A stretch of DNA of 64,000 bases from NCBI RefSeq assembly GCF_009931435.1, contig NZ_CP043414.1, one strand, 5' to 3'. Every line of letters begins with the position of its first letter. Position 1 is the first letter of the stretch. Positions 12,001 to 15,000 of the stretch are shown in pieces. This stretch comes from Escherichia coli (GTDB lineage: Bacteria > Pseudomonadota > Gammaproteobacteria > Enterobacterales > Enterobacteriaceae). Position numbers: made by a program.

Positions 12001-15000
12001 ACAAAAGGGAAAAGGAACCGTTCCATTCCGTTAGATGATGAACTGCTGGCTGAACTACCCGAAACAAAAGGCGCTCTGTTTCCAAAGCCCTGCTATAACG
12101 CTTTCCGTTCCGCTCTGGAACGTGCTGGCATTGAACTACCAGCAGGTCAGCTTACCCACGTACTACGCCATACATTTGCCAGCCACTTTATGATGAACAG
12201 CGGCAACATTCTGGTTCTCCAAAAAATCCTCGGCCATGCCGATATCACTATGACAATGCGGTATGCGCATTTCGCCCCAAGCCACCTTGAAGACGCTGTG
12301 CGACTTAATCCCTTAAAATGCCGCAGCAGCTTAGAAATACTGTCGAGTACCAAAACATAAACAACAAAGATAAAAGGTCTCTAACCTGTTTTCAGCAACA
12401 ACCACTGGAGGAAAACAACAACAATGTAGATTAAAGTTACAGACCCCAGAAACAGCAATAGTTGACAAAAATGAATAAAGGCCGGATGGTGAAGTTTTTG
12501 AGGAACCAAGGTTATATTTCGTGCAATTCCTTCTTTACATCTCACTGTGAGCAACGCGGGTAAGTCAGTATTTATCGACATAACCTCACATCGTATAGAT
12601 TCATGTGGTGCAAGATAATCAAACAACATAACCTGCCTTTCTTCGGCATCACTCTTAATTGTGTAATGCCTTGAGGGCCAAATGTTTACGTACATAGGTG
12701 GGTAATTGAAAATTATCTCCACATTAGTAGCAGGTTCTTTTCCTTCGTTTTTAAAGGCATAGGATTTTGTATGCACCACCTGTTTTGCCTTAACAATTTC
12801 ACCTTCAGCATTACGTAACGGCTCGTTAATTAAATAGCTATATTGGTGAAGCTCTCCATAGCAAATTTTCGCTCCATTTTTAAAAATCTTATTGATAAAT
12901 AAGGTAAAAACAGGAACGAAAAGTGCAAATATTTCTTTCCCATACTGAGTAAGTATATTCATTACTTGTCCACAAAAAGTTGAAATGGTTACCCACCGTG
13001 TTCCTAAAGCAGTCGTTCACCCTACTCTAGTTCTTAGAATAGAAATTCTACATAACTTCAAGCAGCTAACTCAACATAACAATTGAAAAGGTAATCACTC
13101 TGTAAGCGTACCCATTTTAATTTCAGCCGCTTTCTGGCTTGCAGCCGCTACCCCCGCATTGCGCGGTGCATTTCGCCCCAAGCTACCTTGAAGAAGCTGT
13201 ACGCTTAACCCCTTAAAATGTCGCAAAATTGTCGCGACAGCTTAGAAACACTGCCGAATACTCACGAATATTAACTAACGTAACTTATTGATAACACTGT
13301 AAGTTACTGTTTTTCGTAGATAGTTAATGCTTTATAATATAGCCTGTGCTATATCTGTATGTAATGCAATCATCCCTCAAGGATCGACGGGATTAGCAAG
13401 TCAGGAGGTCTTATGAATGAGTTCAAGAGGTGTATGCGCGTGTTTAGTCATTCTCCCTTTAAAGTACGGTTAATGCTGCTCTCTATGTTGTGCGATATGG
13501 TCAACAACAAACCGCAGCAAGATAAACCTTCCGATAAATAGCGGCGTCGCGGTACGCCGCTTCACTCCTGCTTTTATGCAGGCACAACGCGTTTTGCTCT
13601 GAAAAACCCCACTTTTTGTCGGATTTGCAATCCCCTTCGCAAAAGATTTGTTCGTCAGTAGTTGACCTGAACGGCAGCTCGCTCTATCTTCTTGCAGCCC
13701 TGCGTATATTGCGGCTCGCGGATGCGGACCCTTTTCCCCTCTTCACGCACTCTTGCAGGTATTGACCCTTGACGCCAGGGTAAGCACATGGCGTTTGTTA
13801 CGATAGTGGCATATGAATTTAACCCTCAAAGAATCGCTTGTTACCCGTAGCCGGGTATTTAGCCCGTGGACTGCGTTCTACTTTTTACAGTCGCTATTAA
13901 TTAACCTCGGCTTAGGTTACCCCTTCAGTTTGCTATACACCGCCGCATTTACGGCTATTTTGCTTTTGCTATGGCGAACATTGCCTCGCGTGCAAAAAGT
14001 TCTGCTCGGCGTCAGTTCACTGGTCGCCGCTTGTTATTTCCCTTTTGCACAGGCCTACGGCGCGCCTAACTTCAATACCTTGCTGGCATTGCATTCCACC
14101 AATATGGAAGAGTCGACCGAAATCCTGACGATTTTTCCGTGGTACAGCTACCTGGTCGGCTTATTTATTTTTGCGCTCGGCGTAATAGCAATCAGGCGGA
14201 AAAAAGAGAGCGAAAAAGCGCGCTGGAATACCTTCGACAGTCTGTGTCTGGTATTCAGTGTGGCGACATTTTTTGTTGCTCCCGTGCAAAATCTGGCCTG
14301 GGGCGGCGTATTTAAACTGAAAGATACTGGCTATCCGGTATTTCGTTTTGCTAAGGATGTCATCGTCAATAATAACGAGGTGATTGAAGAGCAAGAACGG
14401 ATGGCAAAACTTTCCGGAATGAAAGATACCTGGACGGTCACTGCCGTTAAGCCGAAATATCAGACCTATGTGGTGGTGATCGGTGAAAGTGCGCGTCGCG
14501 ATGCCCTCGGTGCCTTTGGCGGTCACTGGGATAATACCCCGTTTGCCAGCAGCGTTAACGGTTTGCTTTTTGCTGACTATATTGCCGCCAGTGGCTCCAC
14601 GCAGAAATCGCTTGGCTTAACACTCAATCGCGTAGTCGATGGCAAACCACAGTTTCAAGATAACTTTGTCACCCTGGCAAATCGCGCGGGCTTCCAGACC
14701 TGGTGGTTTTCCAACCAGGGTCAAATCGGCGAATACGATACCGCTATCGCCAGCATCGCCAAACGGGCAGATGAAGTGTACTTCCTGAAAGAAGGTAATT
14801 TTGAAGCAGATAAAAACACGAAAGACGAAGCGTTACTGGATATGACCGCTCAAGTGCTGGCACAAGAGCACTCGCAACCGCAGCTGATTGTTCTACATCT
14901 GATGGGCTCACATCCACAGGCCTGCGACCGGACACAAGGCAAATACGAAACCTTTGTGCAATCGAAAGAAACGTCGTGCTATCTCTATACCATGACGCAA

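What the first reader, a model, noticed from the sequence alone, without database searches (positions are those of the whole stretch)
13096..13260. Scar of a second related prophage: Dam 3' end fused to integrase 3' end
Just outside the cargo gene, a ~130-bp segment reproduces the last codons of the Dam-like methylase on the minus strand, joined directly to the last ~50 nt of the integrase gene on the plus strand. Both are diverged, with indels and a frameshift. Their orientation matches the intact prophage, so this is exactly what a deletion from within dam to within int of a tandem, older P2/186-like element would leave. It records serial occupation of this attachment site and may contain the true att core.
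Basis: seen in the sequence. Interest (0 to 1): 0.55.

Follow-up and report, generated by a model that had tools for sequence, protein, structure and literature searches.

The report
Phage attachment arm with deletion scar
The dam-to-integrase fusion is real, but it lies inside the prophage and travels with it: its integrase-like half is most likely the phage's working attachment-site arm, taken from a second related phage together with the cargo gene. It is an ordinary piece of phage mosaic evolution.

Summary
Window 13126-13173 matches the 3' part of the prophage dam gene on the minus strand, in frame. It is joined at a G(C/T)GCATTT microhomology to 13166-13261, a copy of the last 27 codons of int on the plus strand.

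- The att core (TATAATATAGCC) is at 13333-13344, about 70 bp outside the finding, so the scar lies inside the att-bounded prophage.
- The int-like half and the 71 bp up to the core are about 94% identical to the int end of 23 cargo-less prophages at the same site. They are only 80% identical to the resident int.
- This half carries the only tandem TGTCGC-N5-TGTCGC motif on the right side. The same motif sits in the left arm of every related prophage examined. A perfect IHF consensus follows it. It is therefore the probable Int-binding right arm of attP.
- The resident int copy has lost exactly one 11-bp repeat unit.
- The whole int-cargo-scar-core block is 99-100% identical in a Citrobacter prophage and in E. 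coli strains whose flanking chromosome differs by about 2.6%. It moves with the phage.

Cargo, dam' and int' are collinear with a phage map. They look like a captured mini-remnant of a second phage. Novelty and interest are low.

The parts
11305..12360 (+). Resident integrase gene (351 aa), tyrosine recombinase
   Evidence: ORF list. PHROG 1 integrase, E = 4e-73. About 78-95% identical to the L003 int in 96-nt windows.
12265..12350 (+). int 3' end, copy 1 of the duplicated segment. It still codes for protein but lacks exactly one 11-bp arm-repeat unit, so the C-terminus reads ...LKCRSSLEILSSTKT* instead of ...LKCRKNVATA*.
   Evidence: Alignments. Translations. No match to the tandem arm motif within 3 mismatches. 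The variant lacking the 11 bp is seen only in the six cargo-bearing complete genomes.
12381..12962 (-). Cargo gene (193 aa): two terminal transmembrane-like helices around a beta-sandwich. No known family.
   Evidence: Homologues usually sit at the tail-gene (left-arm) end of related prophages.
12963..13095 (.). 133-bp spacer upstream of the cargo gene, origin unknown. It contains one weak sigma-70-like site on the minus strand (13074-13045).
   Evidence: No homologue in any locus or collection searched. The promoter scan did not exceed chance.
13096..13173 (-). dam' : in-frame relic of the 3' part of a DNA adenine methylase gene (25 codons plus a stop at 13095-13097). Clear similarity is limited to 13126-13173.
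13166..13173 (.). dam'/int' junction within the microhomology G(C/T)GCATTT
   Evidence: Read directly. Both repeat families D1 and D2 include these bases.
13166..13261 (+). int' : copy 2 of the int 3' end, of the L003 lineage. It is frameshifted by a 1-nt deletion between 13203 and 13204. The former stop codon TAG is at 13243-13245. It now forms the outer part of the right attP arm.
   Evidence: Window 13169-13420 is 95.7% identical to the L003 int end plus flank, and 93.8% over 13169-13345.
13219..13235 (+). Tandem direct repeat TGTCGC-AAAAT-TGTCGC (11-bp period): probable arm-type Int binding sites of the right arm
   Evidence: The motif occurs only in att arms, in the window and in all fetched loci. 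It is in the same orientation as the prophage wherever that orientation is known. [quoted passage not shown]
13281..13293 (-). Perfect IHF consensus TATCAATAAGTTA between the arm repeats and the core
   Evidence: One of 8 matches in 64 kb. The two SNPs seen here in other carriers keep the consensus.
13333..13344 (.). att core TATAATATAGCC (the attR copy): the true prophage boundary
   Evidence: Identical block shared by the empty K-12 site, attL of the near-identical prophage L001 (10959-10970) and attR. The same attB is present in Citrobacter.
7648..8517 (-). Resident dam gene (289 aa), the reference for dam'
   Evidence: PHROG 56 DNA methyltransferase, E = 2.6e-97. Annotated as DNA adenine methylase in the near-identical prophage.

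Best explanation
The segment belongs to the phage genome. It is not a relic left beside the prophage.

Role of each half:
- The int-like half (13166-13261) and the 71 bp that follow it form the right arm of the phage attachment site. This arm carries two arm-type integrase sites (TGTCGC, 11-bp period) and an IHF site, and ends at the 12-bp core at 13333-13344.
- In cargo-less relatives these arm sites lie inside the last codons of int. DNA placed between int and the core can therefore be kept only if the int end is present twice.
- Here copy 1 (12265-12350) finishes the int reading frame. It has lost one arm repeat through a precise 11-bp deletion.
- Copy 2 keeps the arm sites and has lost the reading frame through a 1-nt deletion.
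- The dam-like half (13096-13173) is probably inert. It marks a microhomology-mediated deletion that once joined dam to int in a second, related phage genome.

Inferred history (not shown):
- Cargo(-), dam'(-) and int'(+), followed by the core, are collinear with that second genome: left-end cargo, then dam, then int, then att.
- The most likely route is that a decayed prophage at the same att site, or the downstream member of a tandem pair, was fused to the incoming phage by loss of the internal hybrid att.
- After that, excision between the outer att sites carried the cargo gene and the scar along with the phage.
For: Boundary:
- The core is at 13333-13344, from comparison of the empty site, attL and attR.

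Arm function (comparative evidence):
- The tandem motif lies within 2 mismatches of TGTCGCAAAAATGTCGC. In the window plus about 0.3 Mb of loci it occurs only once per att arm.
- Right-arm occurrences lie inside the int 3' end of L003, L004, L013-L016 and L028-L030.
- Left-arm occurrences are in L001, L004, L005, L007/L008, L028, L030 and Yersinia L010, plus one beside the cargo homologue in a Citrobacter island, L019.
- My own estimate is about 0.06 chance matches at 2 mismatches or fewer.
- A perfect IHF consensus lies at 13281-13293.
- P2 and 186 arm sites are pairs of direct repeats on both sides of the core (PMC3448106).

Two lineages:
- Copy 2 through the core is 93.8% identical to L003. 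Copy 1 is 80% identical to copy 2, in line with the roughly 85% divergence of the whole int gene.

Mobility after the scar formed:
- The block is 99.3-100% identical in a Citrobacter prophage whose host flank is 81% identical to E. coli.
- In E. coli, chromosome flanks differ by 2.5-2.7% and late genes are only 85-89% identical, while cI-int-cargo-scar is 99.5-100% identical.

Collinearity:
- In four related prophage contexts (five loci: L005/L007, L010, L017, L018) the cargo family sits at the tail-gene/left-arm end, on the same strand as the tail genes.

Plausibility of the process:
- This site holds prophages at every stage of decay (L004, L028).
- The 4.9-kb remnant L030 has a tail-gene-to-int deletion at a microhomology, in a prophage that already carries the cargo and the scar.
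Against: - No binding, integration or excision experiment exists. The arm role rests on motif conservation and position only.
- No donor was found. There is no Dam ending in ...AAEIKMGTLTE*, no homologue of the 133-bp spacer, and no cargo homologue above 70% identity outside this arrangement.
- The remnant-capture route needs at least three deletion junctions (12350, about 13095-13125, and 13166-13173). Only the last shows a clear microhomology.
- Collinearity of three pieces has a chance probability of roughly 1 in 8.
- The left end of the prophage in the window's own genome lies outside the window. attL was read from a 99.94% identical prophage in another strain (L001).
Confidence: 0.75

Rival explanations
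1. The scar is what remains in this chromosome of an older tandem prophage sitting between the intact prophage and mntS. It lies outside the current element and perhaps contains the att core.
For: The dam' and int' fragments are real and are oriented as in the phage map. Copy 2 belongs to a different int lineage from the resident int. Decayed prophages are common at this site.
Against: - There is only one core on this side, at 13333-13344, to the right of the scar. No core or left-arm sequence lies between int and the scar.
- The block is 99-100% identical in a Citrobacter prophage and in E. coli strains with 2.6% divergent flanks. That is not expected of a relic fixed in one chromosome.
- Copy 2 carries the only right-arm Int motif of the element.
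Confidence: 0.08
2. Insertion with flanking duplication inside a single phage genome. A cassette (the cargo gene plus a stray dam fragment as filler) entered the int 3' end by template switching or illegitimate recombination, and duplicated about 95 bp of that same int gene. No second phage or att-site history is involved.
For: The insert (12351-13165) is flanked by direct copies of the same int segment. The right junction shows microhomology. Cargo between int and att has been reported for about 3% of P2-like defence systems (bioRxiv 10.64898/2026.02.27.708500).
Against: - A duplication inside one genome should give two copies of the same lineage.
- Instead, copy 2 is about 94-96% identical to the L003-type int end. 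Copy 1 differs from it by 20%, which matches the divergence of the rest of the resident int.
- The arm from 13262 to the core also belongs to the L003 lineage.
- Later recombination that replaced the right arm could mimic this pattern, so the rival is not excluded.
Confidence: 0.12
3. The dam-like stretch is a chance or low-complexity similarity, and only the int duplication is real.
For: The stretch is short (about 48 nt at 79-81%), GC- and Ala-codon-rich, and its last 8 codons do not match the resident Dam.
Against: - In 28 Gb of E. coli genomes, the only matches outside the carriers lie at the same relative position inside annotated Dam genes, the best at 88.6%.
- BLAST E = 9e-11 against L006.
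- The reading frame is kept, with 14 of 17 residues identical.
Confidence: 0.03

Closest known systems
attP arm-type sites of P2/186-like phages (heterobivalent tyrosine integrases)
   Same: There are pairs of direct repeats on both sides of a short core. The int gene lies next to attP. An IHF consensus sits between the arm and the core (PMC3448106).
   Different: The repeat word here is TGTCGC (11-bp period). It is neither the P2-type tgTGGaCa nor the 186-type tgccGCCActt quoted in that paper. The right-arm pair normally lies inside the int coding end. In this phage it has been separated from int by a duplication.
Cryptic P2-like remnants and 'grounded' prophages at phage attachment sites (for example the P2 remnant at an E. 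coli K-12 P2 att site, from my own knowledge; reviewed in PMC6379469, listed but not read)
   Same: Internal deletions leave gene fragments next to an att site. Decayed relatives are common at this very site (L004, L028, L030).
   Different: This relic is not stranded in the chromosome. It sits inside an apparently complete prophage of about 31 kb and moves with it between hosts.
Cargo or defence hotspot between int and att in P2-like phages
   Same: [quoted passage not shown] It is absent from 23 otherwise related prophages at the same site. This position is described as atypical and holds about 3% of P2 defence systems.
   Different: The cargo matches no defence model (PADLOC). Here the flanking int-end duplication shows how the position was created. 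Another prophage with cargo in that position (L022) shows no such duplication.
Tandem lysogens of lambda-type and P2-type phages and their aberrant excision products (my own knowledge)
   Same: The proposed route is integration next to a resident element, followed by excision between the outer att sites. That carries extra DNA in a hybrid attP.
   Different: This is inferred only. No tandem intermediate was found in any collection searched.

Membership tests
attP arm of a P2/186-like heterobivalent tyrosine integrase system | At least two direct repeats of an arm-type word on each side of the core | tested here: met
   The right arm has TGTCGC at 13219 and 13230. The left arm of the near-identical prophage has TGTCGC/TGTCTC at L001:11031 and 11042. 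The same pair is present in every related arm examined.
attP arm of a P2/186-like heterobivalent tyrosine integrase system | Arm sites lie within roughly 150 bp of a core shared with attB | tested here: met
   The right pair ends 97 bp from the core at 13333-13344. The left pair starts 60 bp from the core at L001:10959-10970.
attP arm of a P2/186-like heterobivalent tyrosine integrase system | Site for a host bending protein (IHF) between arm and core | tested here: met
   A perfect WATCAANNNNTTR lies at 13281-13293. There are 8 matches in 64 kb, against 3.7 expected. This is a consensus match only.
attP arm of a P2/186-like heterobivalent tyrosine integrase system | The N-terminal domain of Int binds the arm sites, and the sites are needed for integration and excision | not testable with these tools
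   This needs footprinting and recombination assays.
   The order is cargo(-), dam'(-), int'(+), then core.
   No core or left-arm motif lies between int (ends at 12360) and the scar. The only core on this side is at 13333-13344.
   The block is 99-100% identical in a Citrobacter host and in E. coli hosts with 2.5-2.7% divergent flanks.
DNA adenine methylase gene (Dam; PHROG 56) | Full-length methyltransferase reading frame | tested here: not met
   Only 25 C-terminal codons plus a stop remain. The intact gene is at 7648-8517.
Phage moron or defence cargo between int and att | Variable gene between int and the core, absent from close relatives | tested here: met
   It is present in 6 of 5,426 complete genomes. 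23 genomes have int abutting the arm directly.
Phage moron or defence cargo between int and att | Recognisable defence or exclusion function | tested here: not met
   No PADLOC, Pfam or informative PHROG match. The fold is a two-helix membrane anchor plus a beta-sandwish-like domain resembling carbohydrate-binding modules, which is not diagnostic.

The most novel reading that the evidence does not exclude
The phage acquired its cargo gene by scavenging a decayed prophage at its own attachment site. The overlapping int-end and arm-site sequence, now present twice, then split its two functions.
- One copy kept the coding function and shed an arm repeat by a precise 11-bp deletion.
- The other copy kept the Int and IHF sites and lost the reading frame.

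If this is general, att sites would act as exchange points where incoming phages pick up genes from remnants. Nested int-end duplications would then be a readable record of such captures.
Probability: 0.35. Interest if true: 0.45.

Novelty: new member of a known kind. Interest (0 to 1): 0.27.

Why it matters
- It corrects the prophage boundary. The element ends at the core at 13333-13344, so the cargo gene and the scar are phage DNA.
- It gives a concrete example of how a gene can come to lie between int and att. A recent survey of P2-like phages calls that position atypical.
- It shows that a sequence that looks like a pseudogene fragment can be the functional arm of attP. Annotators and prophage-boundary tools should not treat such fragments as junk or as evidence of a second element.

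Beyond that, it is ordinary phage mosaicism.

Tried and rejected
Searches that found nothing useful:
- The phage collection gave no match to 13060-13345 (blastn). It also gave no match to the 26-aa dam' peptide (tblastn).
A chimeric 48-aa Dam query returned only ordinary Dam tails and none ending in ...AAEIKMGTLTE. Whether the scar keeps a natural dam stop codon is therefore unresolved.
- The exact junction 28-mer was absent from the 100,044 species-representative genomes.
- In metagenomes the 28-mer occurred only in contigs that already carry the resident int copy. No free remnant or tandem intermediate was found.
- The 133-bp spacer and the 19-30 bp next to the cargo stop codon have no homologue next to any cargo relative.

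Ideas tested and dropped:
- I tested whether any cargo between int and att forces an int-end duplication. Another prophage with cargo in that position (L022) shows no duplication. The idea is not general.
- No tRNA or Rfam family lies in 12000-13900. The integration target is not an RNA gene.
- The promoter and terminator scan of 12250-13450 did not exceed chance. No claim is made about cargo expression.
- Chance similarity for dam' was rejected.

Correction to an earlier assumption:
- I first assumed the window was strain MFDS1016424. It is not. The prophage differs by 8 SNPs in 13.3 kb and the chromosome flank by about 2.6%.
- L001 therefore serves only as a proxy for the left end of the prophage.
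Full report
**Setting**

The window carries the right-hand 13.3 kb of a prophage with a P2-type head. From right to left the genes are int, cI, cII, fil, dam, the replication gene A, ogr, portal and terminase. The E. coli genes mntS, opgE and ompX follow on the right.

A 99.94% identical prophage in strain MFDS1016424 (L001) is about 31 kb long and lies between mntR and mntS. The window is not that strain. The prophage differs by 8 SNPs and the adjacent chromosome by about 2.6%. L001 was used only to read the left end of the prophage, which lies outside the window.

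**Checking the observation**

The int-like part is real.
- Repeat finding and alignment show that 13166-13261 is a copy of the int 3' end at 12265-12350. Identity is 80-81%, with an 11-bp difference in length. BLAST gives E = 2.8e-17.
- Relative to the int 3' end of the cargo-less relatives it also has a 1-nt deletion between 13203 and 13204, which shifts the frame.

The dam-like part is real.
- Window 13126-13173 matches dam at 7712-7759 at 79%.
- On the minus strand it stays in frame: NAPRNAGVAAASQK-AAEIKMGTLTE*, against NAPRSVGAAAASQKMAAELILKSP... in Dam.
- In 5,426 complete E. coli genomes, the only matches to this stretch outside the six carriers lie at the same place in annotated Dam genes. 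The best is 88.6%, with E = 9e-11.

The two halves meet in an 8-nt microhomology (GCGCATTT in both parent genes, GTGCATTT in the scar). The dam similarity is shorter than stated (about 50-78 nt). It does not clearly include the very last codons, which vary among relatives anyway. The int part is longer than stated (about 96 nt).

**Where the prophage ends**

- The empty K-12 site reads ...AGCAATAGCTA TATAATATAGCC TGTGCTATATC....
- attL keeps the left flank, the 12-bp block and then phage DNA.
- attR in the window has phage DNA, the same block at 13333-13344 and then the right flank.

The core is therefore about 70 bp to the right of the finding. The scar lies inside the element.

**What the int-like half is**

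- In 23 complete genomes a related prophage without the cargo gene sits at the same site. There the int gene runs straight into this sequence.
- Window 13169-13345 is 93.8% identical to that int end plus arm.
- The resident int gene is only about 85% identical to the same relatives along its whole length. Copy 2 therefore comes from another lineage than copy 1.

Copy 2 contains TGTCGC-AAAAT-TGTCGC at 13219-13235.
- A search for this 17-mer with up to 3 mismatches found it only in att arms, across the window and more than 0.3 Mb of fetched loci.
- It occurs once in the right arm, inside the int coding end of L003, L004, L013-L016 and L028-L030.
- It occurs once in the left arm of L001, L004, L005, L007/L008, L028, L030 and a Yersinia prophage (L010). 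It also occurs next to a cargo homologue in a Citrobacter island (L019).
- Its orientation matches that of the prophage wherever that orientation is known.
- A perfect IHF consensus lies between the repeats and the core at 13281-13293. The two SNPs seen there in other carriers keep the consensus.

The int-like half is therefore best read as the working right arm of attP. This is inferred from conservation and position. Binding has not been shown.

**The two copies have diverged in complementary ways**

- Copy 1 lacks exactly one 11-bp repeat unit, and its remaining word is TGCCGC. That changes the Int tail from ...LKCRKNVATA* to ...LKCRSSLEILSSTKT*. This variant occurs only in the cargo-bearing genomes.
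- Copy 2 keeps both words and the IHF site but is frameshifted.

**Does the scar belong to the chromosome or to the phage?**

- An IMG/VR contig (L013) carries the same arrangement. cI, int, copy 1, the spacer, dam', int', the arm and the core are 99.8-100% identical, and the cargo segment 12361-12962 is 99.3% identical.
- The host flank beyond the core is only 81% identical to E. coli. It is 96-98% identical to Citrobacter species, whose empty site has the same attB.
- Three other E. coli carriers share cI-int-cargo-scar at 99.5-100%. Their chromosome flanks differ by 2.5-2.7% and their late genes are only 85-89% identical.

The block has therefore moved between genera and between mosaic phages after the scar formed. 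This rules out a relic fixed at this chromosome's site.

**Origin**

- The cargo gene encodes a 193-aa protein. The family is small (41 clusters) and has no Pfam, PADLOC or informative PHROG match. The predicted fold has two terminal helices and a beta-sandwich.
- In four related prophage contexts (five loci: L005/L007, L010, L017, L018) the homologue lies at the tail-gene end next to the left arm, on the tail-gene strand.
- In the window, cargo(-), dam'(-) and int'(+), followed by the core, thus have the order and orientation of a whole phage genome from which almost everything has been deleted.
- This site holds prophages at every stage of decay (L004, L028). A 4.9-kb remnant (L030) already carries the cargo and the scar, and has a further tail-gene-to-int deletion at a microhomology.

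The most economical history is as follows.
1. A second, L003-like phage genome decayed at this att site, either as a resident remnant or as the downstream member of a tandem pair.
2. The internal hybrid att, from 12350 to just past the cargo stop codon, was lost.
3. Excision between the outer att sites then yielded a phage that carries the cargo gene, the dam' relic and the remnant's right arm.

This part is inference. No intermediate or donor was found. A cassette insertion with flanking duplication followed by arm replacement is not excluded.

**Comparison with what is known**

- The structure works like a P2/186-type attP arm, with a different repeat word.
- It resembles known prophage remnants at att sites, but it is carried inside a mobile phage.
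- It is an example of the uncommon int-att cargo position noted in a 2026 survey of P2-like phages.
- No feature calls for a new kind of system.

**Verdict**

The scar is real and comes from a second phage genome. It is phage DNA and does not contain the core. Its int-like half is probably functional. Interest is low to moderate (0.27). Novelty: a new member of a known kind.

Noticed in passing
window 13333-13360: The att core overlaps a perfect TATAAT. It also overlaps the left half of the inverted repeat ATATAGC-CTGT-GCTATAT just upstream of mntS, which looks like an MntR operator (my own knowledge of MntR boxes). Integration keeps this repeat and the TATAAT but replaces everything upstream with phage DNA, so mntS promoter strength or regulation could change in lysogens. 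The same attB is conserved in Citrobacter.
   Followed up: partly
window 12381-12962 (minus strand): The cargo protein has N- and C-terminal long hydrophobic helices around a beta-sandwich (pLDDT 85.6). The closest folds are carbohydrate-binding modules, with weak scores. The family has 41 clusters, all in Enterobacterales and all annotated as hypothetical. In Pectobacterium it lies next to an OLD-like TOPRIM ATPase and a UvrD helicase pair. It could be an exclusion or defence gene, but nothing tests this.
   Followed up: partly
L030 (food metagenome contig UOZF01000842, 4,953 bp): This is a heavily decayed descendant of the same prophage: attL, left-end genes, a fragment of the last tail gene joined to the middle of int (window 11467), then cargo, scar and attR. 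The junction lies in a short microhomology. It shows the same kind of deletion happening a second time.
   Followed up: yes
L028 (metagenome contig SKEK01000955, 13,711 bp): It is 99.95% identical to the L001 prophage but lacks 17.4 kb, from the tail-fibre gene into gene A. This could be a real deletion derivative or an assembly collapse.
   Followed up: no
window 7451-7651 (minus strand): A 66-aa ORF between dam and gene A is absent from L003, where dam overlaps A directly. It is only 88% identical in L013, while its neighbours are 95% identical. This is a small variable spot with no PHROG match.
   Followed up: no
window about 5134-5434; L014 and L015 4306-5037: Two other carriers of the cargo and scar have an extra gene between ogr and A, annotated as a putative phage abortive infection protein. 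The window lacks it. This is the known A-to-portal hotspot of P2-like phages.
   Followed up: no
L006 10568-12301: A related prophage at another site (near rcdA) carries an AAA-family ATPase and a DUF4276 protein between cI and int. It also has a repeat-rich 104-aa gene (24-nt period) between int and att.
   Followed up: no
window 11305-11400 versus the rest of int: The first 96 nt of int are 94.8% identical to L003. The next windows drop to 78-88%. This suggests a recombination breakpoint just inside the int 5' end.
   Followed up: no
L004 (strain Combat13F7) 2843-12078: A 9-kb grounded prophage lies at the same site. It keeps cI, cII, fil and int. It has lost dam, A and all late genes, and carries several unrelated left-end genes, including one for a DUF6338 protein.
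   Followed up: no
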